The translations under genes were made by a program, and so were the position numbers. The notes beneath the pieces are model-generated. The model was given only the letters and a program-made list of their open reading frames with translations, had not been told where the DNA came from and did not search any database. Positions 44,611 to 57,792 of a stretch of 64,000 nucleotides of DNA are shown one piece after another. This stretch comes from a virus, in IMG/VR virus record IMGVR_UViG_3300025875_000008, positions 12,538-76,537 of that record, one strand, 5' to 3'. The stretch's first letter is position 1, and the number at the start of each line of letters is the position of its first letter.

Positions 44611-44988
44611 GTGATTGCAGCCGTCATCTTGGCGCACCTTGTAGGCGACTACTTGATCCAATCCGACTGGATGGCGTCAGAGAAGGTGAAGCGTTTATGG
44701 CCCGCCGTGGTGCACGGCGTGACGTACACGCTGCCATTCCTGTTCGTCACACAATCACCATGGGCGCTGCTGGTCATCGCAGGGACGCACATCGTGATTG
44801 ACCGCTGGCGCCTCGCCAAGCATGTCACCTGGCTAAAGAATCAGGTGGCGCCGAAAGCGTTCCGACCACCGCACACTGCTACCGGCTACAGCGATGACAA
44901 GCCGCAATGGATGACCGTGTGGCTGATGATCCTGGCCGACAACACGCTGCATCTGATCATCAACGTCGCCGCTGTGAAGTGGCTGTGA
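44611..44988 (+). CDS. DUF3307-like membrane protein
   Basis: LAHLVGDYLIQSDWMA..K, HG..Y, THIVID, ADNTLH. Confidence 0.8.
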   Translation: MIAAVILAHLVGDYLIQSDWMASEKVKRLWPAVVHGVTYTLPFLFVTQSPWALLVIAGTHIVIDRWRLAKHVTWLKNQVAPKAFRPPHTATGYSDDKPQWMTVWLMILADNTLHLIINVAAVKWL

Positions 44989-46679
44989 TGGCTGACGCAC
45001 CTGACGTTGGATGCTGGAACGTCTACCGCGACAACACCGATGGCGTCCCCGGCATCAAGCGCGGTATCAACAAGCTGATCGACCGTGGCGCCGACGTGAT
45101 CTGCCTACAAGAACTGTCGAACGACGACTGGTGGCGTGAAGTCCGCGACTGGATGGAAAGCAAGGGTTGGTGGGTTCACCCGCTGAACGTCGCCATCCCC
45201 ATCTACGTGAACGCAGCCAAGTACGACATCCGATCATCGAAGAACACGGTCGTGTTCGACCCGTCCAAGACGGGCGAGATCCGGGTGGAGAAGTCCGGCG
45301 CCAACGAAACGTTGGGCTACAAGTCGTTCACCGAAGTCGTGGCGCAACGCAAGGGCACCCAGGACTTCACCGCGATCCTGAACAACCACATCGTGCCCAC
45401 CATCGAAAACGGTGACGGGCAGTTCATCAACCCGCTGCGCCTCAAGTACGCCAAAGCGCAGATCGTCGCCGTGGGCACCAAAGCCAAGCACTACATCGGC
45501 GAAGGTCTGAACGTCGCCGTCACCGCCGACTGGAACATCTCAAGCAGCACCCCAGCCGGCGCCCAACTCCGCGCATGGATGGCCGACTACGGGCTGACGT
45601 CCGCGCAACACACCCGGGGCCCGTTCAACACCCACGGGGTCCGCGAAATAGACGACCTGTACACCAACGCCGCCATCGGCAGCATGTGGCGCATCGGCAC
45701 CGGAAACGAACGCGGCTACACCAAAGACGGGTCCGACCACAACCCAATCGTGGTGAACCTCGACCCAAAAGGATCGGCGCCAAGCGCGCCAAACGAAGGG
45801 ACTGACGACGATATGGCTACAAGCCAGAACGGTTGGACCGCTGCCTCATCCACGGCAGGCATCCCCGGCGGCGTTACTAGCATCATTCCGAAGGGCGCAC
45901 CTGACACGAAGCTGACGGTTCGGAAGGGCGACGTTGCCACCGTGTTGCAGTACGTGGTGGACGAGTACCAGGCGACCGTTGAGGACATTGACCTGTACAC
46001 GAAGGGAACCGGGGACGACTGGGGATTCGCACCCCGACCCGTGCGAGGCAGCTCAACCACCCTCAGCAACCACGCATCCGCCACCGCGATCGACCTCAAC
46101 GCCACCCGTCACCCGCTCGCAGTGAAAGCGTCCAGCACGTTCACAGCCAAGCAACTGACGGCCATGCGCGCCATCAAATCGAGGCTGCGCAACGCCGTCC
46201 AATGCGGGGCGTTCTACTCGGGCAGACCGGACGGCATGCACTGGGAGATCAACGTCGGCTCGTCCACCCTGGCGAAGGTCGCTGACGACATCCGGTCCGG
46301 CAAGATCAAGCGCACCGGAGAAGCCGTGAAGCCTGCCACGTCCACGCCGAAACCACTCGACCACAAGCCGCTGATCTCGCTCAAAGCGGTTCAGGCTGGC
46401 ATCAAGTCCGGCACCGAACTGGTGGAAGGTCTCGACGGGTCGCAGTACCAGGAAATGCTGAACCGCTACACCGGGTTCAAGCTCGTCACCGATGGGGTGC
46501 TGGGTCGCAACACCCGCGTGGTGACCGCACAAGCCCAGTTGAAGGTCGCCAAAGCCAACGGCAACAAGACCCTGACCATCGCCGACTGCTGGCCCAACAG
46601 CGGCTACAACAGCGACCTTGACGGCATCCCCGGCGCTGAACTATTCAAAGCGTTGGGCGTCGACAACTCCGACTCATGA
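44988..46679 (+). CDS. endolysin: EEP domain + M15 peptidase + PG-binding-like C-terminus
   Basis: EEP motifs WNV, DVICLQE, NNH, ADWN, IDDLY, SDHNP; M15 SQNGW, SNHASATAIDLN, DGMHWE; DGVLG.NT. Confidence 0.82.
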   Translation: MADAPDVGCWNVYRDNTDGVPGIKRGINKLIDRGADVICLQELSNDDWWREVRDWMESKGWWVHPLNVAIPIYVNAAKYDIRSSKNTVVFDPSKTGEIRVEKSGANETLGYKSFTEVVAQRKGTQDFTAILNNHIVPTIENGDGQFINPLRLKYAKAQIVAVGTKAKHYIGEGLNVAVTADWNISSSTPAGAQLRAWMADYGLTSAQHTRGPFNTHGVREIDDLYTNAAIGSMWRIGTGNERGYTKDGSDHNPIVVNLDPKGSAPSAPNEGTDDDMATSQNGWTAASSTAGIPGGVTSIIPKGAPDTKLTVRKGDVATVLQYVVDEYQATVEDIDLYTKGTGDDWGFAPRPVRGSSTTLSNHASATAIDLNATRHPLAVKASSTFTAKQLTAMRAIKSRLRNAVQCGAFYSGRPDGMHWEINVGSSTLAKVADDIRSGKIKRTGEAVKPATSTPKPLDHKPLISLKAVQAGIKSGTELVEGLDGSQYQEMLNRYTGFKLVTDGVLGRNTRVVTAQAQLKVAKANGNKTLTIADCWPNSGYNSDLDGIPGAELFKALGVDNSDS

Positions 46680-46772: not shown

Positions 46773-46946
46773 ATGTTCAACCTCGTCGCCTACCGCCGCC
46801 TCGGCCAGTGGCGTTGGCGTGCCGTGTCCCCCAATGGCAACCGTCTCGCACACGGCGGCGAAGGAAACGCCAACAAAGCCGACTGCCTCGCAGCCCTCGC
46901 AATCCTGTGGCCCAACCACGAAATACAGATCAAGGAGAAACCATGA
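46773..46946 (+). CDS. DUF1508/YegP-like protein
   Basis: WRWRAVSPNGNRLAHGGEG..NKADC; AGGAG RBS. Confidence 0.7.
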   Translation: MFNLVAYRRLGQWRWRAVSPNGNRLAHGGEGNANKADCLAALAILWPNHEIQIKEKP

Positions 46947-47224
46947 ACACCACTTTGACCGGCATTCTCACCGGACGCACCCGCCAGATCGTGTACATCA
47001 TCTACACCGTCGCAGGGCTCGGCCTCGGCGCAACACAGGTCGCCTACAGCGCCAGCAACAGCGGTCAGCCGAGCTGGCTGACCGTCGCCCTCGCAGTGTT
47101 CGGCTTCCTCGGAGCAGCGATCGGCGCCACCGCAGCATCCAACGTTGGCACCGACCAGCCCGTCAGATCCATCGAGTACGGCACCAGCCTCGCCGAACGG
47201 GAAGCCCTCGAAGGCGACGTTTGA
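46943..47224 (+). CDS. holin
   Basis: Two TM segments, R..VY..Y, AASNV; AAGGAG RBS; follows the endolysin. Confidence 0.78.
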   Translation: MNTTLTGILTGRTRQIVYIIYTVAGLGLGATQVAYSASNSGQPSWLTVALAVFGFLGAAIGATAASNVGTDQPVRSIEYGTSLAEREALEGDV

Positions 47225-47280
47225 AGAGGGTTCATCACCCACAACGCAGGAGATAGACCGGACGAGCCGGTCTGACACGC

Positions 47281-47313
47281 ACAGCGCCCCAGTCGTCATG
47301 GCTGGGGCGCTGT
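47281..47313. terminator. 12-bp perfect hairpin
   Basis: ACAGCGCCCCAG / CTGGGGCGCTGT. Confidence 0.55.
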
Positions 47314-47338
47314 GCGTGTCTTACAATTGAGTTGTTGC

Positions 47339-47374
47339 TGCCCACCGTCCTCCGGGACTGGTGGGCATTTTTTG
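47339..47374 (+). terminator. intrinsic terminator of the late operon
   Basis: TGCCCACC-GTCC..GGAC-T-GGTGGGCA followed by TTTTTT. Confidence 0.75.
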
Positions 47375-47378
47375 CGTT

Positions 47379-47636
47379 CTAGGGCCGAGGCGCTTTCACG
47401 ATCTTGCTGACCGATTCGTAACTTACGCCAGCATCCTTGATCTGGTCCGCTGGTACGCCTGCCGCCAGCAGCGCGTCTCGCACAGTGTTCGCGATGTCGC
47501 CCACCGACTTCTGCTGCTCGTTGTGCATTCGCCACAGCCCAAGTCTTCGACGGTTGAGCTGATCGCCAGCCTCACGCAACGCGTCACGACGGGCCAGGGT
47601 CGCAGCAACGACCTCCGCAAGAGGGTCGTTGTCCAC
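47379..47636 (-). CDS. small putative DNA-binding protein
   Basis: AGGAG RBS; SVGDIA...GVSYESVSKIV. Confidence 0.6.
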   Translation of the reverse strand: MDNDPLAEVVAATLARRDALREAGDQLNRRRLGLWRMHNEQQKSVGDIANTVRDALLAAGVPADQIKDAGVSYESVSKIVKAPRP

Positions 47637-47720
47637 AAGTCTCCTGTCTCGCCGCTCACATCGGCTGTTGATGTTGCGACGAGTCTAACGGACTACGGCA
47701 TCCCGATACCTGCCCCGGGC

Positions 47721-47817
47721 AAGGGTTCGCCCCTCTAGCTGCTCCCTTATGAGTCTGACGCTAGAGGGGCGATGAACCCTTAAAAACAAGACCGGCGCTC
47801 GGCGAAGCCTCGCGCCT
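47721..47817. other. large inverted repeats, possibly an origin (oriT/dso-like)
   Basis: About 19-bp arm stem 47721-47739/47760-47781 and GGCGC-TC-GGC-GAA-GCC-TC-GCGCC hairpin upstream of the FtsK module. Confidence 0.4.
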
Positions 47818-47961
47818 AGCCTAACAACAAGACCTAGAAATATGCAACCCGCTACCTCTATGACCTCACAAGTAAGCCGTTACAGGTATGCTCATACTCA
47901 CCATCAACCCCCGACAGGGAAGGAACCACATGACCGCTACTCACTCCGACGAGGACAGCCC

Positions 47962-48222
47962 GTGAAGCTCCTCGTCGCGTTCGTGAAGTGGGTGTTCTAC
48001 ATCGTCGGTGGATGGCTTGCCATCCACATCGTTCTCGCCGTGCTCGTGGCGGTGTTCGCCCAAAGCATCCCGTCCGGGGCCAAGATCAGCCTCGGCCTGA
48101 TGCAGAAGGAAGTCATTATGACCGGCGCCTTGCTGTCGTACAGCGACAACGTCGGCCCCGACCTGGCTGAGGGTAAGCGCATCGGCGACAAAGCCCTTCA
48201 GAGCAAGTCCAGCGACAACTGA
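47962..48222 (+). CDS. small membrane protein
   Basis: GAGGA RBS; long N-terminal hydrophobic segment. Confidence 0.6.
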   Translation: MKLLVAFVKWVFYIVGGWLAIHIVLAVLVAVFAQSIPSGAKISLGLMQKEVIMTGALLSYSDNVGPDLAEGKRIGDKALQSKSSDN

Positions 48223-48253
48223 CCGACATGAGAAAGGAAGGGTTCGATCTGAG

Positions 48254-50146
48254 ATGAGCAAGCGATTCAGCACCACTCTCGCGAAGACCAAGATCCGACG
48301 TTGGGCGTTCAGCAAACTTGAGCGGTGGACGAAGAAGGCGTCCGCTTGGCTGGATGAACTGGGACGCGAACTGAAGCAGTTCGCGGTGGTGGGCGTGATC
48401 GCCACCATCATCCTGTTCTGCTTCGTTCCGTGGCAGACGTTGGAGTTAGCGGTGTTCGTGGGAGTGGTGCTGTTCGCTATCAAGCAAAGCCCGTTCGTGC
48501 TGTGGCTGCACGGGTGGCGGCAACGACTGGTGGCCGACCATCAGGAACTGCCGAAGCTGAAGGAACTGCGCAGCACCTACGACCACCTTCAGAAGCAAGA
48601 GGAACTACTCACCGACAAGTGGCCCGAGTTGTGCAAGATGCACGGCTTGCAACTCAACAAACTCACCCCCGTTCTGGTCGACGTCAAGCCAACCCTGGAC
48701 TCGACCCCCCGGGGCGACCACGACTTCACCGCCCGTATCCCTCGCACTGGGTTCGACCCCGACGACATCAAGAACAAGGCCCCCAAGATCGTCAAGGGTC
48801 TCGGTTGCCAGTCCATCGCGGTTCGTGAAACAGCGGTGGGTTCGTGCGACATCCGCTTTAACTGGACGAACCCGATCCGTCGCGAACTACCGCTGCGCGA
48901 GCTGAAAATGCCACTCCGTGGCGGAATCGTCGTCGGGCACACGGAACACAACATGCCAGCCGAACTGCCTCTACCCACGTCGAAAATCTGGGTGGGCGTG
49001 TCTGGCTCGGGGAAGTCGAACGGCGCCGAAGGTGCACTGTGCGACCTGGCACGGCGAGGTGTTCCGATGCGAATTCGAATCGTCAACCCGAAGAAGAACG
49101 AGTTGCGCCAGTTCAACGAACTGGTCAAGCAGAAGATGGGCAACTTTGAAGTCAGGGACTACGCCGAATCCAAAGACGACTGCATCCGACTGTTGAAGGA
49201 TGCAGAGCAGGCAATGATCCGACGCAACGGCGCGATGAAGGGACGCAAGCTCACTGCACCTACCCCCGAGAATCCGTTGGACATCACCTATGTGGACGAG
49301 TTGATGATGCTGCCAAAGGAGGCATACAAAGACGGGCCATACAGCCCTATGGGGCAACTGGCTATCGCAGGCCGCGCATCGCTGTATTCACTGTGGGGCT
49401 CAACTCAACAGTTCTACGCCGCAGACTTCGGGACTATGAAGGGTCTGTTTGACGAACGGATTCTGTTTCGAGTCAAGACAGCAATACAAGCCGACATGGT
49501 GATTGACGAAGCTGTTAAGCGCGGCGCCCTGGCTCACAGGATTCACAAGTGGAAAGAAAAGGGTGTCGGCTACATCGAAGACGAACACGGTGAGCTGACC
49601 TTGTTCCGCGCCCCAAAGGTTGAGGACTGGCACCTAGGGCGACTCATTCACGGTCAGATCCCTGACCCGGACATGATCACAGTTGCGACCAAGGAAGAAG
49701 ACAAGCCGCTCGATCAGTCTGTCTACTTCATTGAGGCTCAGGGCACGGACCTGGTGAAGATCGGGATCGCGGAGGTTCCCGAGAAGCGGCTGAAGGAACT
49801 GCAAACCGCCAGCCCGCACAAGCTCGCCATCCTCGGCACCATGCCCGGTGGGAAGCCGCAAGAGTCGGCGTTTCACAAGCAGTTCGCGGCCACTAGGGCG
49901 CACGGCGAATGGTTCCACCGCACCCCCGAAATCGACGCTCTGATCGCTGATGTGATCGCCGGCAAGTACGACGAGCAGCCACCCGAGAAGGTGAAAGCGC
50001 ACCCGGTGCAGACCGCCCGCCAGTGGATTGATCAGAAGCAGATCGCGCACCGCGAGGCGAAGGGGCTCGAGCCGAAGCAACCCGCAGTGTGGGGACCGGA
50101 CGAACTCCCGTGGCTGCGTCCTGACTTCGTGGCCGGGCACCGCTGA
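48254..50146 (+). CDS. FtsK/SpoIIIE (TraB/TcpA-like) ATPase with C-terminal T5orf172 (GIY-YIG-like) domain
   Basis: Two N-terminal TMs; Walker A GVSGSGKS; Walker B TYVDE; GRASLYSLWGSTQ; VYFI..VKIG...RL..LQT...E..FH..F....GEWF. Confidence 0.82.
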   Translation: MSKRFSTTLAKTKIRRWAFSKLERWTKKASAWLDELGRELKQFAVVGVIATIILFCFVPWQTLELAVFVGVVLFAIKQSPFVLWLHGWRQRLVADHQELPKLKELRSTYDHLQKQEELLTDKWPELCKMHGLQLNKLTPVLVDVKPTLDSTPRGDHDFTARIPRTGFDPDDIKNKAPKIVKGLGCQSIAVRETAVGSCDIRFNWTNPIRRELPLRELKMPLRGGIVVGHTEHNMPAELPLPTSKIWVGVSGSGKSNGAEGALCDLARRGVPMRIRIVNPKKNELRQFNELVKQKMGNFEVRDYAESKDDCIRLLKDAEQAMIRRNGAMKGRKLTAPTPENPLDITYVDELMMLPKEAYKDGPYSPMGQLAIAGRASLYSLWGSTQQFYAADFGTMKGLFDERILFRVKTAIQADMVIDEAVKRGALAHRIHKWKEKGVGYIEDEHGELTLFRAPKVEDWHLGRLIHGQIPDPDMITVATKEEDKPLDQSVYFIEAQGTDLVKIGIAEVPEKRLKELQTASPHKLAILGTMPGGKPQESAFHKQFAATRAHGEWFHRTPEIDALIADVIAGKYDEQPPEKVKAHPVQTARQWIDQKQIAHREAKGLEPKQPAVWGPDELPWLRPDFVAGHR

Positions 50147-51639
50147 TGCCCGACATCGCTGTTGGCCCAGTCGTTGTTGACGCTGGCACTGCCGCCAAGT
50201 GGACGGCGCGCATCATCGGTGCCGGGGTCATCAGTGTCGTCGTCCTGGTTGCGCTCGCGATGATTTTCGCCGGACTGGCTGCGAAGCAAGGCAACGACGT
50301 CGAGGTCAACTGCGGACCTGCTGTCTCCATGCCACTCGGCGACCAAGGGCTGAACGTCACCGGCAAGATCGGCGACAAGATGCACAAGCCGAACTTCAGC
50401 AGCGCCTGGCAAACCGTCAAGTCACTATTCCGGGCGATCGAGATTCTGCGCATGTGGATCGGCAACATCGGCAACCACGCACAAGGGTTGCCGGAGGGGA
50501 GTGGCGCCACAGGTTGGCGGAACAGGACCGAACAGGACAAAGCAGCAGACCTGGCTGCCTGCTGCCCATCTGAGCCAATTGCGCCCGCCGACCCTGACGA
50601 GGCACCCAAGGACCCGGCACCACCCAAGGAAGAATGGGACCCGAAGAACGCGTCGCTACAACTTGAGGACGCCACCAGTAAAGAGGAACGGCAGGTGAAG
50701 ATTCTGCGCACCGCGATCAGCGTCCGCAAAGCGAAAGACTTGCCACCTCGGGCTGACTTGGTGATCGCCGTCGCCGGCCTGGTGGAGTCGAACATTGCGA
50801 ACCTGAACTACGGCGACCGGGACAGTCTCGGCTGGTTGCAGCAGCGCCCGTCTGCTGGCTGGGGGTCACCGTCGCAGATCCGCGACATCCGCTACTCGTC
50901 GGCGAAGTTCTTCGACCACCTGAAAGGCGTCGACGGGTGGCAGTCGATGACGGTCGGCAGGGCAGCTCAGAAAGTGCAGATTTCGGCGTTCCCTGACCGG
51001 TATGACAAGCGAACCGCCGAAGCAAAGAAACTCCTCGCAATGGCTGGCGGGGGGAACCCCGACACCCAAGACGCACCCGCCGTTCCCAAGGCGCCGCCGA
51101 GCACCCCGAACATCGCCTGCGAATCCCAGTCGCCAACCACAGGCACCATCGTTCCCGCCGACACTGCACCCATCCCGGGTGGCACCACCCGCACCCCCGC
51201 CAGCTTCAACAAGCAAGGCAACCCGCGAACCGTCGAACAGACGATGACATTCCTCGAGAACATGATTGAGGACAAGACCCCGATTCAGCCGGACATGTGC
51301 GCTCGGTACGTCGCAAGGGCATACGGCTGGAAAAACTCGGGTTGCTACCCCTGGTCGGGCGATAGGAGCGGCTGCACTGCGATTGGTTTGTGGCACAGCA
51401 TCCCTGACAACCTCAAACGGCCCGGCAAGTCCAACCCACCCCGTGGCGCCCTCGTGTTTTGGAAGACAAAGAACGCCGCCCGGCACATCGCCATCTCGGC
51501 CGGCAACGGCAAGATCATCTCCACCGACATCCCGAACGGGCGCTGGGGAACGATCGACCTGGAAGAGATCGACCGCTGGGGGCCGCGCATCGGGTGGGCT
51601 GCCCCGCACTGGCCCGCACACTCAGGAACGCAAGCATGA
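50146..51639 (+). CDS. membrane-anchored bifunctional wall hydrolase (lysozyme-like + CHAP/NlpC-P60-like)
   Basis: N-terminal TM; LVESNIANLNYGDRDSLGWLQQRPSAGWG; CARYVARAYG...PPRGALVFW...HIAISAGNG. Confidence 0.82.
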   Translation: MPDIAVGPVVVDAGTAAKWTARIIGAGVISVVVLVALAMIFAGLAAKQGNDVEVNCGPAVSMPLGDQGLNVTGKIGDKMHKPNFSSAWQTVKSLFRAIEILRMWIGNIGNHAQGLPEGSGATGWRNRTEQDKAADLAACCPSEPIAPADPDEAPKDPAPPKEEWDPKNASLQLEDATSKEERQVKILRTAISVRKAKDLPPRADLVIAVAGLVESNIANLNYGDRDSLGWLQQRPSAGWGSPSQIRDIRYSSAKFFDHLKGVDGWQSMTVGRAAQKVQISAFPDRYDKRTAEAKKLLAMAGGGNPDTQDAPAVPKAPPSTPNIACESQSPTTGTIVPADTAPIPGGTTRTPASFNKQGNPRTVEQTMTFLENMIEDKTPIQPDMCARYVARAYGWKNSGCYPWSGDRSGCTAIGLWHSIPDNLKRPGKSNPPRGALVFWKTKNAARHIAISAGNGKIISTDIPNGRWGTIDLEEIDRWGPRIGWAAPHWPAHSGTQA

Positions 51640-51688
51640 TTGTCGGCCCGTACTGCCATACTGGAACCCACTACAGAACGGACCTGAC

Positions 51689-52162
51689 ATGCTGTTCCTG
51701 CTGATTGTTCTCGCCGCCATCGCCTGGGCCGCGCTGTCTTTCGCCCTGGCCGTGACCGTCGCACTGTTGATACGGATGCGCGGCAACTACCCCGAGGGCG
51801 AGTCGTTCAAGTCGTGGCGCAACGTCACCTTCAAGCACGTGCTGTTCGGCGGCTACGGGCTTGTCGGGGCAGGGTTCGCAGTCGGCTACATCTACCGGGT
51901 TCGCGAAGGTCTGTCCGAGACTCCCGCATGGGTTGAGAACGTGGTGTGGCTCACTGAGCATTGGTGGGTGATCCTCATCGTCGGCGTGCTGGCATTGCTG
52001 GGGTTCGCCGGTTGGTGGCTGTGGCAGCACCGCGAAGTGGTCGTCACCGAAGACACGCCTGACCTCTCCCCCGCAGTCCCCCACCCCGATCAGCAGATGA
52101 CAGCGGTCATGCCGTGGTCGCTGGACCCCAACACCCCGCACTGGCAGACAGGAAGGAACTGA
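51689..52162 (+). CDS. 3-TM membrane protein
   Basis: Three hydrophobic segments; same strand and operon as the FtsK gene. Confidence 0.65.
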   Translation: MLFLLIVLAAIAWAALSFALAVTVALLIRMRGNYPEGESFKSWRNVTFKHVLFGGYGLVGAGFAVGYIYRVREGLSETPAWVENVVWLTEHWWVILIVGVLALLGFAGWWLWQHREVVVTEDTPDLSPAVPHPDQQMTAVMPWSLDPNTPHWQTGRN

Positions 52163-52228
52163 CATGGCAGCGTTCGTCCGAGCTGAGCACTGCAAGCACC
52201 ACCGCAAGTTCGACATCAACTGTGGATC

Positions 52229-52351
52229 ATGTCGCAACGCCGCGTCGCGCAGGTAACCCGCCGCTGGACGATCGGCGACTACGCACTGCTCGCTGGGCTG
52301 CTGGCAACCGTGCTCATCGCCGTCCTGACCCTGCGCTGCTGGTTCCTGTAG
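52229..52351 (+). CDS. 40-aa single-TM peptide
   Basis: MSQRRVAQVTRRWTIGDYALLAGLLATVLIAVLTLRCWFL. Confidence 0.45.
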   Translation: MSQRRVAQVTRRWTIGDYALLAGLLATVLIAVLTLRCWFL

Positions 52352-52366
52352 CCACCTAGAACCGCA

Positions 52367-52401
52367 ACACCCTCTCGCCAACGTCAGGGGCGAGAGGGTG
52401 T
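52367..52401. terminator. bidirectional terminator
   Basis: 13-bp perfect stem ACACCCTCTCGCC/GGCGAGAGGGTGT between convergent genes. Confidence 0.75.
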
Positions 52402-52457
52402 TTGCCGTTCGGGGGATCCGGCTACCTATCAGAGACAGCAGCAGGCGGGCTGATACA

Positions 52458-53045
52458 TCACCCGACCTTCTTCCATTCTCCGCAGCCGCTGGACGTGAAG
52501 CTGTACGCCTTGCTGGTGATGCGGATCAGCGTCTTGCCTTTGGGGGTGACTTCCTGCTCAAGGATGTCGCCGTCCTCAGTTTCGGTTTGCGCGTAGCAGT
52601 ACGGTTCACCATCAGCCACGCCACCCGACTGCCACTTGCCGGTTTTGATCTCGTCCCCAACCAGGTAGGTGCCGTCCGAAATCGCGCCATCGTCCTGCGC
52701 GCCGCCCTCCTCATCCGACGTCGGTTCCGGCTCAGGTGCGGGCGCTTTCTCCGTCACCGTCACAGTGGGTGCCGGCTCAGCAGCCTTACCCGCCTGCGTG
52801 ACCGTCTTCCCGGGCTGCGTCACGGTTACTGTGGGCGCTGGACCGGCAGCAGGGACAGCGGTGGTCGCATCCCCCGCCGATCCCCCCGCGCACCCGATGA
52901 TCGTCCCCAACAGGAACCCGCCCACACCCGCCAACAACCATTTGCGGGACTTCTTCGGCTTCGGCAACGGCTGAGCTGGCCCCGGGTTGTAAGGACCGTA
53001 CGGCTGACCCTGCGGCGGATAGTTCGGCGGCGGCTGACTACTCAC
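52458..53045 (-). CDS. Pro-rich membrane-anchored/lipoprotein-like surface protein
   Basis: AGGAG RBS; TM ending GCAGG; PTVTVT repeats; DGTYLVGDEIKTG...CY...SSGCGEW domain. Confidence 0.8.
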   Translation of the reverse strand: MSSQPPPNYPPQGQPYGPYNPGPAQPLPKPKKSRKWLLAGVGGFLLGTIIGCAGGSAGDATTAVPAAGPAPTVTVTQPGKTVTQAGKAAEPAPTVTVTEKAPAPEPEPTSDEEGGAQDDGAISDGTYLVGDEIKTGKWQSGGVADGEPYCYAQTETEDGDILEQEVTPKGKTLIRITSKAYSFTSSGCGEWKKVG

Positions 53046-53124
53046 TGGACTCCTAAAGTTGAACGGGCACGACCATTGTTAAGGGTAACGGGGCAACAGG
53101 GGCGGGTTAGCGGTAACGAGTTAG

Positions 53125-53385
53125 TCACGAGAGTTCTGTCAATGGGGCGAGCCGCAACTGAATCGGACCTGACGTCGCTGCCAGATTTCCGCGCATGATC
53201 GCGAACACCTGATCGAGTCGTTCATGCGCGTGCTCAATGCACACAGCATCAGCGATGAAGCCCGGCTGGTGCGCATGATCGACACGAAACAGGAGCGACC
53301 GCCCTGGGCTGAGGATGTGTGCTGAAATGATGGCAGGATCACCGCAGTTCTCAATAGAGCACCTAGCGGCAGGGTTGAGTGTCAT
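53125..53385 (-). CDS. hypothetical protein
   Basis: ATGA-coupled; CSIENC...VCIEH. Confidence 0.55.
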   Translation of the reverse strand: MTLNPAARCSIENCGDPAIISAHILSPGRSLLFRVDHAHQPGFIADAVCIEHAHERLDQVFAIMRGNLAATSGPIQLRLAPLTELS

Positions 53386-53582
53386 CGGTCAGTTCCAACT
53401 AGATGGCCTAGTGCGGTGCGTCCGCACACTTCACACCACTTGGGCTTCGCGTCGTGGTGCTGCTGCGGTTCGTGAGGCCCTGGGCACGCTTCCCAAACGG
53501 CGAACTCCAATTTAGCTACGGCTCGGTGAGCCGTGTCGCGCAAAACGTCAAGTTCGCCCTGCGTTGTATCTACTTCACTCAC
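53382..53582 (-). CDS. hypothetical Zn-binding protein
   Basis: GTGA-coupled start; CPGPH...WCEVCG. Confidence 0.55.
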   Translation of the reverse strand: MSEVDTTQGELDVLRDTAHRAVAKLEFAVWEACPGPHEPQQHHDAKPKWCEVCGRTALGHLVGTDR

Positions 53583-53776
53583 AGCTTCCACGTCCATCCT
53601 GGCCGGATCCTCACTGTCACCCTGTTGCCGCGCCTGGCAGTAGGGTTGAACGTCACCCGATCCCACAGCCGAAACGAAAACGAGGGCAGGCCCAGATCCT
53701 GGTTCATGTGAATGTCGAGGTTCTTGCCGTCACGGAGTTGCTTGCGCTTGCGGAAACCGACGCCGAGGAACCTCAC
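53579..53776 (-). CDS. basic hypothetical protein
   Basis: GTGA-coupled in the leftward operon. Confidence 0.55.
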   Translation of the reverse strand: MRFLGVGFRKRKQLRDGKNLDIHMNQDLGLPSFSFRLWDRVTFNPTARRGNRVTVRIRPGWTWKL

Positions 53777-53982
53777 AGCGACGACTCCGCTCGAGCCATT
53801 ACGTCGGCGACAGTGGCGCGACGAACCTTAATGTGAACGTGCAGCTCGCGGGTGTAACCGAACTCCCGCTTTGCTTCCGCCAGATTTGCGGCGTACTTAA
53901 TGCTCTCAGTGGTCTTGCCCCAGGTGAATCGGCTGACGACGTACGCGTGCTTGCCGTCCTTGTCCGGCGCGAACTTGCTCAT
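53773..53982 (-). CDS. hypothetical protein
   Basis: ATGA-coupled; GGAAAGGGG RBS. Confidence 0.6.
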   Translation of the reverse strand: MSKFAPDKDGKHAYVVSRFTWGKTTESIKYAANLAEAKREFGYTRELHVHIKVRRATVADVMARAESSL

Positions 53983-54143
53983 GCTTCCCCTTTCCGGGGC
54001 TTGTTGTAGTTGACCAGCGACTTGCGGACTGCCTCGCTGACGGTTTCGCCGCGAGAGGCAGCACGACGGCGGGCGGTGTCGTAGTTGCGTGCGTTGCGAG
54101 CCTGAGTCTCGGCCAACTCGCGGATGACTGACTTCAGCATCAT
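53979..54143 (-). CDS. small RHH-like protein
   Basis: MMLKSVIRELAE...ARRRAASRGETVSEAVRKSL; coupled at both ends. Confidence 0.5.
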   Translation of the reverse strand: MMLKSVIRELAETQARNARNYDTARRRAASRGETVSEAVRKSLVNYNKPRKGEA

Positions 54144-54343
54144 TGCCCCTTGTAGCCGAGTTGCATCAACAGTCGCTCGTAGTTCCAGCGTTCCACCACA
54201 TGCCGCACAGTGTCGTGCGGGTATGCGACCAAGGGTGTCCCGTTGAACCTTCCCTTGAACTGGCCCTGCGCTCGTGCTGTGTTGAGCGCGGTTGCTGCCG
54301 CGTCGTCAATGCGAGTTCCAGGACCATAGGTGTCGTCGTTCAT
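54140..54343 (-). CDS. hypothetical protein
   Basis: AAGGAAGG RBS, ATGA-coupled. Confidence 0.6.
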   Translation of the reverse strand: MNDDTYGPGTRIDDAAATALNTARAQGQFKGRFNGTPLVAYPHDTVRHVVERWNYERLLMQLGYKGQ

Positions 54344-54525
54344 GCCTTACCTTCCTTTCGCTTCTCGGCCAACGCTTCCACGTCGGCAGTGTTGAACAAC
54401 AGTTGCCCGTTGGCGAGCTTGGCTGCCGGCTTCAGCTCACCTCGAACCACCATGCGGGTGACTGTGGACACGGACGCGACACCGAGGATGTCTCGGGCTT
54501 CAGCCGTTGTGATGGGATCGCTCAT
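54340..54525 (-). CDS. small MerR/excisionase-type HTH protein
   Basis: ITTAEARDILG...TVTRMVVRGELKP...LLFNTADVEAL; paralog of 1604 and 63566. Confidence 0.8.
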   Translation of the reverse strand: MSDPITTAEARDILGVASVSTVTRMVVRGELKPAAKLANGQLLFNTADVEALAEKRKEGKA

Positions 54526-54583
54526 GCATCAATCATTGCGCAATGAGTGTTGCAGTGTCAAGCAGATTGACAGTACATGTTCA
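54526..54583 (-). promoter_or_regulatory. leftward promoter with operator-like array, leaderless start
   Basis: Minus strand TGAACA-N5-TGTCAA-N5-TTGACA(-35), 18-nt spacer, AATGAT, 6 nt, ATG; CATTGCGCAATG palindrome. Confidence 0.72.
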
Positions 54584-54689
54584 CCCTGATGCGACAGATT
54601 TTGTTGTTGGTTGTCTCCATACGTCTTGGGTGACTCTGCTGGCCCTAGTGCTGTAGCCAAACACGTACACCAACTGGTATGGTCCGAGC

Positions 54690-55190
54690 ATGACCTCACT
54701 CAAAGACGACTTCGATGCCGACACGACGCACAGGTGGGCCGAGCAATGGCGCATTCCTCTAGTGACGAGTCCCTATCCCCGCTGGAACTACGAGGTCGCC
54801 CTGGTCGTCCCCTTCGGTGACGACGCCCTGTGGCGAACGGTTTGGCCCACGGACTTTGAAGCGGAGTTGGTGGCATCCCTGATCGACTACCGGCGCAGTT
54901 ACTACAACGACTCCTACCAGCGAAAGATGCTTAGCCGCAGCCTTGACGTAGATGGGTCAACGAACAGCAAGATTCTGCTCAAGACTGAGGATGGTTGGTA
55001 CTACCGCCTAGCAACCTGGCACCACGGCCCCTGGCCGCTGTACAACACCCCCGCCGAAGTGAAAGCGCCGTTCACGCCCGATGCCCGTGGTCTCGTTGCC
55101 TTGATGGATCGCATGTACACCATCGTGGATCACGTCTACGATCCTTGGCTTGACTGGAAGCGAACGCACCCAATCTTTGAGGGGCTGTGA
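54690..55190 (+). CDS. Trp/Tyr-rich hypothetical protein coupled to the integrase
   Basis: TATGGT -10 box 6 nt before ATG; GTGA overlap with int. Confidence 0.7.
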   Translation: MTSLKDDFDADTTHRWAEQWRIPLVTSPYPRWNYEVALVVPFGDDALWRTVWPTDFEAELVASLIDYRRSYYNDSYQRKMLSRSLDVDGSTNSKILLKTEDGWYYRLATWHHGPWPLYNTPAEVKAPFTPDARGLVALMDRMYTIVDHVYDPWLDWKRTHPIFEGL

Positions 55191-56557
55191 TATCCCCTGT
55201 CCGTGTCGTCATCTATCTCCGCATCTCCCTTGACGCTGTAGGGCTGGGTCTCGCCGTTGAACGGCAGCGCGAGGAGTGCATGAGGCTCATCCGTGAACGC
55301 GGCTGGCAGTTCGTGCGCGAGTACGCCGACAACAGCATCAGCGCATCCAAGCGGACCACGCTGCGCCCAGCGTATGAGCAGATGGTGTCCGACTTTGAAG
55401 CAGGCGAGTTCGACGCCATCGTGTGCTACGACCTGGACCGGCTCACCCGCCAACCCCGCCAGTTGGAAGACTGGTGCGAGGCAGCCGAGGAGAAAGGGCT
55501 GAAGCTCGTCACCGCCAACGGCGAAGCGGACCTGTCCAACTACAACGGACGCACCTTCGCCCGTATCAAAGCGTCCATCGCCCGGGGCGAGATGGAAGCC
55601 AAGAGTGCCCGCCAGAAGGCAGCGCACGTCCAACGAGCAGCAATGGGCAAACCGTGGGCTAACCGGCGACCGTTCGGGTTCCTTGGCGGCGGCAGCGAAC
55701 ACCACCCCGAAGAAGCGCCCATCCTCGCCGGCATCTACAACGACATCCTGATGGGTGCAGGGCAAACCACTATCTGTAGCACTCTCAACCAGTCTGGCGT
55801 CACAACCACCCAAGGCAACCAGTGGCGCCAGTCATCACTGCGGCAACTACTGTTGAACCCCCGCAACGCCGGACTGCGCGCACGCCACGGTGTCATCGTT
55901 GGGCAAGGACTGTGGCAGCCAATAGTCACCGAAGACGTGTGGCGGGCAGCATGCAACATCGTCACCAGCCACCCACTCGTCGGCCACCGAGGCAGCCTGC
56001 ACCTACTGTCCGGGTTGCTCACCTGCGGTCTGTGCGGCAGCTCAATGACCACCGGCTACACCAGCCGTAAAGTCCGCATGTACCGCTGTACTGAATGCAA
56101 ACGCATCGGCAGGAACGCCGACAACGTGGACGAATGGATCGCCGCTGTCGTGACAGCCCGACTCAACCGACCCGACGCTGACAGGCTGCTGGTCGACAAC
56201 AACGCACCCAACGTCACCGGGCTACAGGACGAAGTGCGCCGGCTCGAAGCTGTCCTAGAAGAGAACACGAAGATGCGCGGATCAGGCGACATGAGCGTGG
56301 CCGAGTGGAAGACAGCGAAGGTTCGCACCAGCGAGCTGATCGAAGCGACCCGGGCGAAGATCACCAAGAACACATCAGCCGCCATCCTCGAGCCCCTGGT
56401 CAACGCACCCGACGCCGCGATCGTGTGGCAAACCCAACCCGTCGACCGACGCCGCGCAGTCATCGGCACCCTTGCCCGCATCGTCGTCAACCCCACCCGC
56501 AAAGGGGCCAAGTTCAACCCCGACGACATCGACGTCCAATGGAGGATAGACGCATGA
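55187..56557 (+). CDS. int: large serine integrase
   Basis: IYLRIS catalytic Ser, RQ..C, D.ISAS, DRLTR, recombinase domain, CGLCG/YRC zinc ribbon, coiled coil. Confidence 0.95.
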   Translation: MISPVRVVIYLRISLDAVGLGLAVERQREECMRLIRERGWQFVREYADNSISASKRTTLRPAYEQMVSDFEAGEFDAIVCYDLDRLTRQPRQLEDWCEAAEEKGLKLVTANGEADLSNYNGRTFARIKASIARGEMEAKSARQKAAHVQRAAMGKPWANRRPFGFLGGGSEHHPEEAPILAGIYNDILMGAGQTTICSTLNQSGVTTTQGNQWRQSSLRQLLLNPRNAGLRARHGVIVGQGLWQPIVTEDVWRAACNIVTSHPLVGHRGSLHLLSGLLTCGLCGSSMTTGYTSRKVRMYRCTECKRIGRNADNVDEWIAAVVTARLNRPDADRLLVDNNAPNVTGLQDEVRRLEAVLEENTKMRGSGDMSVAEWKTAKVRTSELIEATRAKITKNTSAAILEPLVNAPDAAIVWQTQPVDRRRAVIGTLARIVVNPTRKGAKFNPDDIDVQWRIDA

Positions 56558-56562
56558 CGCTG

Positions 56563-56604
56563 CGTCAACATGCTTGACAACCTGTGCCATTTCGGCGCTA
56601 CAGT
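56563..56604 (+). promoter_or_regulatory. promoter with operator-like array
   Basis: CGTCAA-N5-TTGACA-N5-TGCCAT; TACAGT -10 (spacer long, 19 nt). Confidence 0.55.
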
Positions 56605-56672
56605 TGTTAGATAAGAACCCCGCACCTGAGGGCATCAGGCCGGGGCACGGTCCAACTATCTAGGAGTTAGAC

Positions 56673-57113
56673 ATGTCAAAGATTACCCATGCCGTCAGGG
56701 CCGCCGCAATCGCGGTCGCCTCGTTGGCGTTGACTCTCACAGTCGCGGTCGCGGCACCTACGGGTGCGAGCGCAGTCACGATGAAGAACTGGGAACGTAA
56801 CTCGGGTGGTTCCTACACGGGCGCCATATACCACTGCGCTAAGGATGGACGGATCACTGGTCGTGCGCTGGTAGTGGAGCGTGGCAACAGGGGCACGATT
56901 CGTTGCAAGTTCAGCAGCAAAGACAAGCCATACGGCATCAAGGTGTGGCAGCCCAAGAACAGTTGCTTGACCGTTCAGTACTACTACGGCCCCGGCGCGT
57001 GGGTCACGAAGTACCGGTACAGCGCCAAGCGTTACGGTCGTGACGTGTGGGTCAAGAAGGGTTCGTACGGCGGAACGCACCGCACCAAAATCGTTCGCTG
57101 TAAGGTGCGTTGA
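56673..57113 (+). CDS. secreted cationic protein with 4 Cys
   Basis: AGGAG RBS; Sec-type signal ending ASA; Lys/Arg/Tyr-rich mature part. Confidence 0.75.
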   Translation: MSKITHAVRAAAIAVASLALTLTVAVAAPTGASAVTMKNWERNSGGSYTGAIYHCAKDGRITGRALVVERGNRGTIRCKFSSKDKPYGIKVWQPKNSCLTVQYYYGPGAWVTKYRYSAKRYGRDVWVKKGSYGGTHRTKIVRCKVR

Positions 57114-57352
57114 TGGCTGAACTGACACCCCTTCGCCCCCCGGCCACGCCTCGAGAGTTGGAGCTGGCTCAACAGTTGCGCGAGACGCAAATCGACTTCC
57201 ACCGCACAATCGCAATCCTGCTTGCCAAGTTGGGCGGCTCGGCGCACATCACGGCAGCCGAACTTGACGAGTGGGTTGGAACTTTCACTCGCACACCGGA
57301 CCCACACGGCAGCGGATTCACGTTGACCGTCGAACAGGAGGGCGGCACTTAG
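57110..57352 (+). CDS. hypothetical protein
   Basis: Coupled to the upstream gene. Confidence 0.6.
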   Translation: MMAELTPLRPPATPRELELAQQLRETQIDFHRTIAILLAKLGGSAHITAAELDEWVGTFTRTPDPHGSGFTLTVEQEGGT

Positions 57353-57378
57353 ACTGGCATGGACGCCTAAACGCACAT

Positions 57379-57409
57379 CACCCCCGCAAGCCTCACATTT
57401 GCGGGGGTG
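57379..57409. terminator. bidirectional terminator
   Basis: CACCCCCGCAA/TTGCGGGGGTG stem between convergent genes. Confidence 0.7.
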
Positions 57410-57423
57410 CTGTTTGTGCGGGT

Positions 57424-57792
57424 TCAGGCGACGTTCACGCCGTCCATCGGCTGCGACGGTTCACCGTCAATCGCCGGCCAACCTTCGTCGTCGTCCACGC
57501 GCATCTTCCCCAGCCACAGCGCACTCTTGCGCTGCTCCTCAGTCAACCAACCCGTAGCCTCATGATGCCCCAGGTCAAGATGCGCAACAGCTTGAGCTGC
57601 AACCAACGGAATGTTCGGGCACTCCTCGTTGATGACGATCCGTTTCGCCCGCCTCATCACCACTTTTTCAGGCATCGTCTCGCCGATCCTGATGTCGATC
57701 TTCCTCACCACCAGCCGCCAATCCGGCCAGCGACGCGCCGCATCCTTGAAGGCGTCATACTTCTCGATCAACCGTTTGCTGCTCAACCGCAT
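57424..57792 (-). CDS. ImmA/IrrE-like protein with degenerate zincin motif
   Basis: IVINE...AAQAVAHLDLGH...E..A; immediately downstream of the repressor. Confidence 0.5.
   Translation of the reverse strand: MRLSSKRLIEKYDAFKDAARRWPDWRLVVRKIDIRIGETMPEKVVMRRAKRIVINEECPNIPLVAAQAVAHLDLGHHEATGWLTEEQRKSALWLGKMRVDDDEGWPAIDGEPSQPMDGVNVA

What the first reader, a model, noticed from the sequence alone, without database searches (positions are those of the whole stretch)
47721..52401. Conjugation-like module (FtsK/TraB-type ATPase + wall hydrolase + membrane proteins) inside a complete temperate phage
Seen: a co-oriented unit between terminators encodes a 2-TM FtsK/SpoIIIE ATPase with intact Walker A/B, a membrane-anchored lysozyme-like + CHAP-like hydrolase and three small membrane proteins. 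No relaxase or VirB4 is evident. Known: Streptomyces plasmids and AICEs move circular dsDNA with one FtsK-like TraB plus spread proteins and no relaxase; Tn916/pCW3 pair an FtsK-like protein with a bifunctional wall hydrolase. Inference: the excised prophage circle, which has its own integrase and replication genes, may also spread cell to cell without a virion. This is the best candidate for an undescribed system in the window.
Basis: partly seen in the sequence, partly recalled or inferred. Interest (0 to 1): 0.82.

Follow-up and report, generated by a model that had tools for sequence, protein, structure and literature searches.

The report
Plasmid-type DNA pump cassette in phage
A temperate actinobacterial phage carries a self-contained, separately regulated gene cassette: a membrane DNA pump related to the ones actinomycete plasmids use for cell-to-cell DNA transfer, plus its own cell-wall-cutting enzyme. 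The phage may therefore move DNA between cells without a virus particle, but this has not been shown.

Summary
Between hairpins at 47274-47320 and 52366-52402 lies a co-oriented operon:
- an 86-aa membrane protein;
- a 630-aa two-TM FtsK/Tra-type ATPase ending in a T5orf172/MUG113 (GIY-YIG clan) domain;
- a membrane-anchored muramidase + NlpC/P60 hydrolase with CwlT-like architecture;
- a 157-aa membrane protein and a 40-aa membrane ORF.

The ATPase is homologous to Tra proteins that sit next to Rep genes on actinomycete plasmids (hhalign probability 99%). The cassette is intact in 12 other phage or prophage loci, one of which fuses pump and hydrolase into a single protein. It has no att sites, integrase or replication gene of its own. 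A diverged sister copy of the phage on the same contig lacks it, so it is an accessory phage module, not an inserted element.

Cell-to-cell transfer is plausible but unproven; superinfection exclusion is the main rival. The idea has precedent in the Streptomyces plasmid-phages pZL12 and pFP4. This scan has also noted Tra-like modules in two other phage genomes. I rate it a new variant of a known kind.

The parts
47274..47320 (.). Perfect 19-bp-stem hairpin. It is a bidirectional terminator between the holin-like gene (46943-47224, +) and the divergent small gene (-), and marks the left boundary of the cassette.
   Evidence: inverted repeat I1, 100% complementary, 9-nt loop; sequence
47379..47636 (-). 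Conserved 85-aa protein (P0282), transcribed divergently from the operon. It is probably a small DNA-binding regulator, playing a role like Kor/TraR.
   Evidence: Translation. tblastn finds homologues at 31-54% identity in L001-L007 in the same divergent position, and more distant ones downstream in L008 and L011. Only sub-threshold HTH_3 hits, E about 0.003, in two homologues.
47637..47961 (.). Divergent control region. It contains a 13-bp perfect inverted repeat (47727-47772), conserved TAACGG / CCGTTAC..GTA motifs, and an 11-codon leader ORF (47930-47965) behind a GGAAGGA ribosome-binding site. The leader's stop codon overlaps the GTG start of the next gene (GTGA).
   Evidence: alignment A4 of six loci shows the conserved motifs; frame reading
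47962..48222 (+). Small membrane protein of 86 aa with a conserved C-terminal motif (LSYxDNxGPDL..GK). It is the first gene of the operon in every locus.
   Evidence: 37-49% identical to the gene upstream of the ATPase in L001 and L003; 31% over 45 residues in L004; L005
48254..50146 (+). Membrane-anchored Tra/FtsK-type dsDNA translocase (P0001, 630 aa). Layout: TM hairpin at about residues 39-85, motor at 119-472, then a T5orf172/MUG113 (GIY-YIG clan) domain at 488-568.
50146..51639 (+). Membrane-anchored bifunctional peptidoglycan hydrolase (P0002, 497 aa). Layout: TM at residues 17-50, a family-specific helical anchor module at about 60-140, a muramidase at 200-302, then NlpC/P60 at about 350-490. 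Its start overlaps the ATPase stop codon by one base.
51689..52162 (+). 157-aa polytopic membrane protein with a C-terminal WSL..P.W motif. Homologues follow the hydrolase in L002, L004 and L005. A homologue also follows the endolysin in the cassette-less sister copy.
52229..52351 (+). 40-aa single-TM ORF, a candidate third small membrane protein. Its reality is unverified.
52366..52402 (.). Perfect 14-bp-stem hairpin. It is a bidirectional terminator and the right boundary of the cassette. Homology with the sister copy resumes at 52356.
   Evidence: (I8)

Best explanation
**What it is.** This is a phage-borne, separately regulated cassette that spans the cell envelope and acts on DNA. It descends from the Tra (TraB/TraSA) dsDNA-translocase family of actinomycete plasmids and AICEs.

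**Proposed mechanism.**
1. The small divergent protein keeps the operon repressed.
2. When it is expressed, the two-TM ATPase assembles as a ring in the membrane.
3. Its C-terminal GIY-YIG-clan domain recognises, and perhaps nicks or cuts, a site on the excised or replicating phage DNA.
4. The motor pumps double-stranded DNA outward.
5. The co-translated, membrane-anchored muramidase/NlpC-P60 enzyme opens the peptidoglycan locally.
6. The small membrane proteins complete the channel.
7. DNA thereby passes into an adjacent cell, either a sibling across a septum or a neighbour, without a virion.

**Shown here:** gene content, homology, architecture, conservation and insulation of the cassette.

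**Inferred:** ring assembly, the DNA target, the direction of pumping, and transfer itself.
For: - **ATPase fold and homology.** The ATPase has the FtsK/Tra fold and motifs. It is homologous over about 340 columns, including the pre-motor domain, to Tra-like proteins encoded next to RepSA (Gordonia pGRS1) and next to an RCR Rep plus a GntR regulator (8-kb Streptosporangium plasmid). hhalign gives 99.0-99.3% probability. A profile of 57 relatives scores E 1e-61 to 2e-75 on these proteins.
- **Nearest Atlas clusters.** These are short actinobacterial FtsK/SpoIIIE proteins and 'plasmid transfer protein TraB'.
- **Nucleic-acid domain.** A nucleic-acid-type domain sits where TraB and FtsK carry their DNA-recognition domain. 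Within the close family it alternates between the T5orf172 type and the canonical GIY-YIG type. This points to a DNA substrate rather than a protein substrate.
- **Dedicated wall hydrolase.** A membrane-anchored peptidoglycan hydrolase lies 0-3 genes downstream in the 11 other loci where pump and hydrolase are separate genes, as it does in the window. In L008 everything is one 973-aa polypeptide: TM, motor, GIY-YIG, TM, lysozyme, peptidase. A cytoplasmic DNA motor physically tied to an extracellular wall-cutting enzyme is what conjugation systems have (CwlT, TcpG).
- **Regulation.** A divergent small gene, conserved operator-like motifs and terminators on both sides give a kil/kor-like layout.
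- **Precedent.** Streptomyces plasmid-phages are reported to conjugate using a tra gene and also to form particles (PMC4170104, PMC3583192).
Against: - No functional data of any kind exist.
- Every member of the large ATPase clade whose context I could read (8 of 8 in the tree, 12 loci in all) is in a phage or prophage. The two plasmid Tra proteins fall outside that clade. The GIY-YIG-type end and the hydrolase are additions not reported for the Tra proteins of plasmids and AICEs, so the clade may have acquired a phage-specific job.
- No clt-like repeat cluster was found.
- The likely host group is Arthrobacter-like, not a mycelial organism in which TraB/Spd spreading is established.
- The sister phage copy does without the cassette.
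- Some relatives sit among early-type genes in contigs with no visible integrase (L011, L016, L017). A prophage-circle transfer role would not apply to a strictly lytic phage.
Confidence: 0.42

Rival explanations
1. Superinfection exclusion or defence. The membrane-anchored motor with its GIY-YIG-clan domain waits at the membrane, then seizes and cleaves or expels DNA injected by competing phages or plasmids. The prophage expresses it to protect its host.
For: - The cassette lies in the lysis-to-integrase accessory region, where temperate actinophages usually carry lysogen-expressed genes, and it is insulated by terminators.
- It is present in one phage variant and absent in the sister copy, as expected of a swappable accessory cassette.
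- Every family member whose context I could read is phage-borne.
- 24 of 57 relatives carry a canonical GIY-YIG catalytic domain.
Against: - No meaningful PADLOC match. The only hit is a P-loop hit at E 0.002.
- Exclusion does not explain an obligatory partner hydrolase with intact active sites facing outward, nor its fusion to the motor.
- The motor's nearest relatives in a known setting are transfer proteins.
Confidence: 0.22
2. The cassette helps the phage's own infection cycle. It could be an early-made membrane motor that pulls the rest of the genome into the cell, or a wall-remodelling and lysis accessory acting with the lysis cassette next to it.
For: - The cassette directly follows the endolysin and holin-like genes.
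- Its 157-aa membrane protein has a homologue that directly follows the endolysin in the cassette-less sister copy.
- Cassette hydrolases share catalytic modules with endolysins of related phages, for example EEP + SLT_3.
- Some relatives lie among early genes.
Against: - The phage already has a separate endolysin, a holin-like gene and a tape-measure M23 lysin.
- The cassette has its own divergent regulator and terminators rather than being part of the late operon.
- A DNA motor has no known role in lysis.
- The sister phage lacks it.
Confidence: 0.13
3. Manipulation of host chromosome segregation, division or development. This is what has been suggested for the FtsK-like genes of cultivated actinophages.
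For: The literature lists ftsK-like genes among actinophage genes that may act on host development (PMC10117723, PMC13587820). Cluster J mycobacteriophages and Streptomyces phages carry annotated FtsK-like translocases.
Against: - Those cultivated-phage genes are only distantly similar. tblastn with P0001 or P0162 finds no ATPase match in 50,697 phage records.
- They have a different context with no hydrolase.
- This idea does not explain the outward-facing hydrolase or the nuclease-type domain.
Confidence: 0.08
4. An independent integrative element (an AICE or an integrative mobilizable element, IME) that merely inserted into the phage, or an assembly chimera that placed foreign DNA next to phage DNA.
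For: The contig is unusual, at 1.36 genome lengths with diverged repeats, and one copy lacks the cassette.
Against: - There are no flanking direct repeats, and no integrase or Rep inside the unit.
- The same cassette sits in the same kind of phage neighbourhood in 12 independent contigs from different samples.
Confidence: 0.03

Closest known systems
Tra / TraB / TraSA dsDNA translocases of actinomycete conjugative plasmids and AICEs (pSVH1 TraB, pIJ101 Tra, pSAM2 TraSA)
   Same: - N-terminal membrane anchor followed by a single FtsK-type motor.
- Clear homology to plasmid Tra-like proteins next to Rep genes. TraSA and pIJ101 Tra appear among the top structural matches.
- Divergently transcribed regulator and small membrane proteins in the operon. 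This kil/kor- and Spd-like layout is known from the literature and is seen in L009.
- No relaxase and no VirB4.
   Different: - The C-terminal winged helix that reads clt repeats is replaced by a T5orf172 or GIY-YIG domain.
- No clt-like repeats were found.
- A dedicated hydrolase is always attached.
- The carrier is a tailed phage, not a plasmid or AICE.
- The regulator is not of the GntR type.
- In the tree the phage proteins form their own clade, apart from the two plasmid Tra proteins.
Streptomyces plasmid-phages pZL12 and pFP4 (Zhong et al. 2010; Chen et al. 2012, as cited in PMC3583192 and PMC4170104)
   Same: One replicon carries both tailed-phage particle genes and a tra-type transfer function. 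It is reported to conjugate as episomal DNA and also to form infective particles.
   Different: - Those are plasmid-maintained (ParAB) Streptomyces elements. This one is an integrating phage with a serine integrase and is probably from an Arthrobacter-like host.
- Their sequences could not be fetched here, so no direct comparison was made.
- tblastn of P0001 residues 1-480 against the plasmid collection found no Streptomyces record.
CwlT (ICEBs1, Tn916 family; PDB 4fdy, 4hpe) and TcpG (pCW3), the bifunctional conjugation hydrolases
   Same: - Membrane- or lipid-anchored.
- N-terminal lysozyme-like domain plus C-terminal NlpC/P60 domain.
- Both active sites conserved.
- Encoded beside an FtsK-like ATPase; TcpA is the second-best structural family for P0001.
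   Different: - The muramidase core resembles the fungal-type muramidases 8b2e and 8b2h rather than the CwlT lysozyme.
- There is an extra family-specific helical anchor module.
- No VirB4, VirB6 or VirD4-type T4SS partners are present.
FtsK-like DNA translocases annotated in cultivated actinophages (Cluster J mycobacteriophages, Streptomyces phage Gilgamesh; PHROG 1358)
   Same: Phage-encoded FtsK-superfamily ATPases. PHROG 1358 matches residues 119-472.
   Different: - Only remote similarity, with no tblastn hit from P0001.
- No partner hydrolase in the one Cluster J phage whose context I read, Minerva.
- No function is known for them either.

Membership tests
FtsK/SpoIIIE-HerA superfamily ATPase | Walker A and Walker B motifs in a RecA-like core with the FtsK alpha/beta motor fold | tested here: met
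   G253, K254, D348 and E349 are invariant in 57 relatives. Foldseek matches the FtsK motor 6t8o at E 4e-15 and probability 1.00.
FtsK/SpoIIIE-HerA superfamily ATPase | Scores above the Pfam PF01580 gathering threshold | tested here: not met
   P0001 gets no PF01580 hit at E<=0.01, although 39 of 57 relatives and PHROG 1358 do match. It is a divergent member.
Actinomycete conjugative Tra (TraB/TraSA) translocases | N-terminal membrane domain plus a single motor, homologous to Tra proteins of plasmids and AICEs | tested here: met
   TM hairpin at residues 39-85. hhalign gives 99.0% and 99.3% probability to Tra-like proteins next to an RCR Rep and next to RepSA. TraSA has TM-by-hit 0.61.
Actinomycete conjugative Tra (TraB/TraSA) translocases | C-terminal winged-helix domain that binds 8-bp repeats of a clt locus | tested here: not met
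   The C-terminus is T5orf172/MUG113. Relatives carry a canonical GIY-YIG domain.
Actinomycete conjugative Tra (TraB/TraSA) translocases | A clt locus (clustered short repeats) on the transferred replicon | tested here: inconclusive
   The k-mer clustering and over-representation scan found nothing convincing. The motif for a GIY-YIG-type domain is unknown.
Actinomycete conjugative Tra (TraB/TraSA) translocases | Demonstrated contact-dependent transfer of dsDNA | not testable with these tools
   This needs mating experiments.
AICE (integrative conjugative element of actinomycetes) | Int + Rep + Tra within one unit of about 9-24 kb bounded by att sites | tested here: not met
   There is no Int or Rep inside 47.3-52.4 kb and no flanking direct repeats. 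The integrase and replication genes present belong to the phage.
CwlT/TcpG-type bifunctional conjugation hydrolase | Anchored protein with a lysozyme-like domain plus an NlpC/P60 domain, both with catalytic residues | tested here: met
   TM at residues 17-50. E214 and H447 are invariant and C385 is nearly invariant. 8b2e matches with TM 0.78, and CwlT structures 4hpe and 4fdy align over both domains. NlpC/P60 is sub-threshold in Pfam, at 19.3 bits against a cut-off of 23.
CwlT/TcpG-type bifunctional conjugation hydrolase | Encoded within a VirB4/VirD4-type Gram-positive T4SS cluster | tested here: not met
   No VirB4, VirB6 or relaxase among the scanned ORFs of the window.
T5orf172 / MUG113 (GIY-YIG clan) | Scores above the Pfam gathering thresholds | tested here: met
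   MUG113 scores 39.7 bits (cut-off 22.3). T5orf172 scores 27.2 bits (cut-off 20). Both cover residues 490-558.
T5orf172 / MUG113 (GIY-YIG clan) | Catalytically competent GIY-YIG nuclease centre | tested here: inconclusive
   Y491, G504 and R512 are conserved, but the second Tyr is Lys (VKIG), as in T5orf172 proteins. The activity of this subfamily is not established.
Plasmid-phage of the pZL12/pFP4 kind | One replicon carrying tailed-phage particle genes and a tra-type transfer gene | tested here: met
   particle genes; Tra-type ATPase
Plasmid-phage of the pZL12/pFP4 kind | Extrachromosomal maintenance by ParAB and a plasmid replicon | not tested
   A serine integrase and a phage-type replication initiator plus DnaB were found. 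ParAB was not specifically searched for across all ORFs.

The most novel reading that the evidence does not exclude
A large clade of Tra-type membrane translocases, so far seen only in phages, carries a built-in GIY-YIG-superfamily nuclease domain and an obligatory anchored wall hydrolase. Together these would form a minimal, relaxase-free DNA export machine. The nuclease domain would open the circular phage genome at a specific site, and the motor would thread the linear duplex through a self-made hole in the wall into a neighbouring cell. Many temperate actinophages would then have a second, virion-independent and receptor-independent route of spread.
Probability: 0.2. Interest if true: 0.85.

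Novelty: new variant of a known kind. Interest (0 to 1): 0.6.

Why it matters
**If the cassette moves phage DNA between cells.**
- Host range and spread of these temperate phages would not be set by receptors and virions alone.
- The line between phage and conjugative element would blur further, beyond the two Streptomyces plasmid-phages studied so far.

**Mechanistic interest.** A dsDNA translocase fused to a GIY-YIG-type domain suggests an answer to an open question: how a circular duplex gets through a hexameric Tra ring. It might be cut first.

**If the function is exclusion instead.** It would still be a new type of membrane-located defence, built from a DNA motor and a nuclease.

**Either way.** The cassette is a recurrent, intact, uncharacterised five- to six-gene unit. 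Neither P0001 nor its relative P0162 finds an ATPase match in 50,697 cultivated-phage records. A scan for the close family also found nothing in one genome each of 185,579 species.

Tried and rejected
**DNA and protein similarity to deposited phages.**
- blastn of the module against 50,697 phage records gave no match.
- tblastn of P0001 and of its relative P0162 against the same records matched only the GIY-YIG/T5orf172 part.
- So no cultivated relative could be used.

**Searches for related loci.** With the close alignment A3 it found nothing in GTDB genomes or IMG/VR.

- The Nonomuraea record is too large to search, and control-genome FtsK loci were not returned. I therefore made no tree against chromosomal FtsK or EccC.

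**Other negative or weak results.**
- clt-like repeat search: nothing convincing.
- PADLOC: only a weak P-loop hit.
- NCBIfam: nothing for the module proteins.
- pZL12 paper and pSLE1 record: not held, so the closest functional precedent could not be compared by sequence.

**ORFs rejected as genes.**
- 47361-47738 (+), which lies over the real minus-strand gene.
- 51671-52381 (-) and 52398-53198 (+), which are shadow frames of real genes on the other strand.
- The ATG at 47842 as the start of the small-TM gene.

**Rejected reading.** A T7SS-like protein-secretion role. The protein has a single ATPase domain and a nucleic-acid-type C-terminal domain, and EccC/EssC rank below FtsK and TcpA.

Full report
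**1. What the DNA is**

The window is bases 12538-76537 of a single 85,091-bp virus record. It encodes a complete siphovirus-type temperate phage:
- a large terminase, 72% identical to that of Arthrobacter phage Hum25;
- an SPP1-type portal, an HK97-type capsid and a tape measure with an M23 domain;
- an EEP + M15 endolysin;
- a serine integrase;
- a repressor, a RecT-like protein, a replication initiator and a DnaB helicase.

The contig holds more than one genome length. Contig bases 1975-22059 are a mosaic copy, 74-98% identical, of bases 64893-84215, about 62.7 kb further on. I call the left copy A and the copy inside the window B. These are either two related phages in tandem or a strain-chimeric wrap-around assembly. 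I could not tell which.

**2. The observation**

It holds.

- *Boundaries.* Perfect hairpins at 47274-47320 and 52366-52402 bracket a co-oriented gene set.
- *The 630-aa protein P0001 (48254-50146).*
  - It has an N-terminal TM hairpin. Its Walker A and B residues are invariant across 57 relatives.
  - Pfam does not call FtsK_SpoIIIE on it, only MUG113/T5orf172 at residues 490-558.
  - PHROG 1358 'FtsK/SpoIIIE-like' matches residues 119-472, and 39 of 57 relatives hit PF01580.
  - A confident model (pLDDT 83) matches FtsK motors (E 4e-15), then the pCW3 coupling protein TcpA (E 1e-13), then EccC/EssC.
  - Among Swiss-Prot models, TraSA of pSAM2 is the best match by hit coverage (TM 0.61, residues 118-474). 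Tra of pIJ101 is also listed.
- *The 497-aa protein P0002 (50146-51639).* Its start overlaps the ATPase stop codon by one base.
  - It has a signal-anchor TM, a helical module and a muramidase core. The core matches 8b2h at E 6.5e-14 by sequence, and 8b2e at TM 0.78 and rmsd 1.6 by fold.
  - An NlpC/P60 domain follows. E214, C385 and H447 are conserved.
  - The next-best structural matches, aligned over both domains, are 4hpe and 4fdy. From my own knowledge these are the CwlT hydrolases of conjugative elements.
- *Membrane proteins.* These lie at 47962-48222 (86 aa), 51689-52162 (157 aa) and 52229-52351 (40 aa, unverified).

**3.

The stretch 47321-47961 is not empty. On the minus strand, 47379-47636 encodes an 85-aa protein (P0282). 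Homologues occupy the same divergent position upstream of the cassette in L001-L007, and lie downstream in L008 and L011. It gives only sub-threshold helix-turn-helix hits.

The intergenic region contains a 13-bp perfect inverted repeat (47727-47772). It also carries TAACGG / CCGTTAC..GTA motifs that are conserved in six loci.

In the window, an 11-codon leader ORF with a strong ribosome-binding site ends in GTGA on the start codon of the small-TM gene.

A divergent small regulator, operator-like repeats and terminators on both sides make this an independently controlled unit. The layout resembles the regulator/tra arrangement seen in the small Streptosporangium plasmid L009. From the literature it also resembles the kil/kor arrangement of Streptomyces plasmids.

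**4. Relatives**

- *Close family.* It is rare. Only 8 proteins were found among 5.8 billion, all from metagenomes. There were none in 50,697 phage records, none in IMG/VR, and none in one genome each of 185,579 species.
- *Wider family.* The exhaustive search finds 1,123 hits at E<1e-10, though some match only the T5orf172 domain.
- *Contexts I could read.* There are 12 loci: L001-L008, L011 and L015-L017. All look like phage or prophage. They carry endonuclease VII, HNH, a holin, tail proteins, DnaB, RuvC, integrases and a CI-like repressor. One is a probable prophage in an actinobacterial chromosome.
- *Conserved order.* In all 12 the order is small membrane protein, then ATPase, then a membrane-anchored wall hydrolase 0-3 genes downstream.
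- *The hydrolases.* They share the N-terminal anchor module but swap catalytic domains among SLT_3/muramidase, NlpC/P60, VldE, M23 and EEP.
- *A fusion.* In L008 the whole thing is one 973-aa protein: TM, motor, canonical GIY-YIG, TM, lysozyme, peptidase. This is strong evidence that the cytoplasmic motor and the extracellular hydrolase work as one machine.
- *The C-terminal domain.* Within the close family it alternates between the T5orf172 type and the canonical GIY-YIG type. 24 of 57 relatives hit the Pfam GIY-YIG catalytic domain.

**5. Relation to conjugation proteins**

tblastn of the motor region against plasmids finds three weak hits. Two were informative.
- *The Streptosporangium plasmid.* This is an 8-kb unit assembled twice in the record. 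Its hit follows a divergent GntR regulator and small ORFs, and precedes a rolling-circle Rep.
- *Gordonia pGRS1.* Its hit is immediately followed by a split RepSA (pSAM2-type) gene.

hhalign of the 12-member close alignment against these two proteins gives 99.0% (E 2e-18) and 99.3% (E 3e-20) over about 340 columns. A profile of 57 relatives scores them at E 1e-61 and 2e-75. The Atlas look-up agrees, returning short actinobacterial FtsK/SpoIIIE proteins and 'plasmid transfer protein TraB'.

In a quick maximum-likelihood tree, all eight phage-context proteins sit in one clade of 59-60 rows (SH-aLRT 90-96). That clade excludes the two plasmid Tra proteins. Only two plasmid proteins were sampled, and one has a long branch.

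**6. Is it an inserted independent element?**

No evidence supports that. There are no flanking direct repeats and no recombinase or replication gene inside the unit.

Copy A shows what the phage looks like without the cassette: a different endolysin, then 153-aa and 61-aa membrane proteins, then directly the minus-strand 199-aa gene. That gene is 93% identical to window 52458-53045. DNA homology between A and B resumes at window 52356, right at the terminal hairpin.

So the cassette is a dispensable accessory block in the mosaic lysis-to-integrase region. The 153-aa protein of copy A is a homologue of the membrane protein that follows the hydrolase in L002, L004 and L005. That gene may therefore belong to the lysis neighbourhood rather than to the cassette core.

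**7. Function**

The parts make sense together as an apparatus that moves DNA across the membrane and wall:
- a motor homologous to Tra;
- a nucleic-acid-type domain where FtsK and TraB carry their DNA-recognition domain;
- an outward-facing wall hydrolase tied to the motor;
- small membrane proteins;
- tight local regulation.

My best reading, at about 0.4, is conjugation-like cell-to-cell transfer of phage DNA. The GIY-YIG-clan domain would act as the site-recognition, and possibly cutting, module.

The main doubts are these:
- All readable members of this clade are phage-borne.
- They have two features, the nuclease-type domain and the hydrolase, that are not reported for plasmid Tra proteins.
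- No clt-like repeats turned up.
- The likely host group is not mycelial.
- Some relatives lie among early genes in contigs with no visible integrase.

A membrane-located exclusion device (about 0.2) fits the phage-only distribution and the genomic position. It does not explain the hydrolase or the fusion. A role in the phage's own DNA entry or in lysis, and manipulation of host segregation, are less likely.

**8. Novelty**

- FtsK-like genes in actinophages are known as annotations without a function (PMC10117723, PMC13587820). Those are different proteins in a different context.
- Phage genomes that also conjugate are known. [quoted passage not shown]
- This scan has also flagged Tra-like modules in two other phage genomes. 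One of those has a neighbouring GIY-YIG-like protein.

New here:
- the fusion of a translocase to a GIY-YIG-clan domain;
- the obligatory anchored hydrolase, and its fusion to the pump in one relative;
- the conserved divergent small gene;
- the recurrence of the cassette in a dozen uncultivated integrating phages.

Verdict: a new variant of a known kind.

Noticed in passing
whole contig; window 1-9522 versus 52356-64000 and beyond: The 85-kb record holds about 1.36 genome lengths. The lysogeny and early region occurs twice, about 62.7 kb apart, at 74-98% identity, including two 98%-identical serine integrase genes. Either two related phages lie in tandem or this is a strain-chimeric wrap-around assembly.
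   Followed up: partly
window 47227-47240 (+) and 47767-47780 (-): Two exact inverted copies of AGGGTTCATC(A/G)CCC flank the divergent 85-aa gene. With up to two mismatches the pattern occurs 7 times in the window against about 1 expected. This could be an operator or a recombination scar.
   Followed up: partly
window 47930-47965: An 11-codon leader ORF (MTATHSDEDSP) sits behind a GGAAGGA ribosome-binding site. Its TGA stop overlaps the GTG start of the small-TM gene. In the other loci the ATG after the same ribosome-binding site starts the membrane protein directly. This is therefore either translational coupling or a frame change at the 5' end.
   Followed up: partly
contig bases 1027-1488 (copy A, left of the window) and window 51689-52162: The roughly 150-aa membrane protein family that follows the cassette hydrolase in L002, L004 and L005 also occurs directly after the endolysin in the cassette-less copy A. 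It may be a holin-like or lysis-associated protein rather than a cassette component.
   Followed up: partly
window 52458-53045 (-): A 195-aa protein with a lipobox-like LLGTIIGC motif and a Pro/Thr-rich linker, 93% identical between the two phage copies. It is convergent with the cassette and is a likely lysogen-expressed surface lipoprotein.
   Followed up: no
L003 8604-9032, L005 13055-13405, L008 13478-13855, L015 11860-12117, L016 6930-7262: A DUF6221 protein accompanies the cassette in five of the related loci. It is absent from the window.
   Followed up: no
L001 6458-8050 and L008 14617-16257: Ro60/TROVE + vWA genes lie within a few kb of the cassette in two related phage contigs.
   Followed up: no
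L015 12822-14864; proteins P0167-P0169, P0240: Some cassette-type anchored hydrolases carry an EEP (endonuclease/exonuclease/phosphatase) domain. The same domain type is fused to the M15 peptidase in this phage's own endolysin (44907-46679).
   Followed up: no
L010 9240-10498 (Gordonia rubripertincta pGRS1): The RepSA gene next to the plasmid Tra-like gene is split into two overlapping frames. This suggests a decayed AICE-type module inside a 159-kb MOBF plasmid.
   Followed up: no
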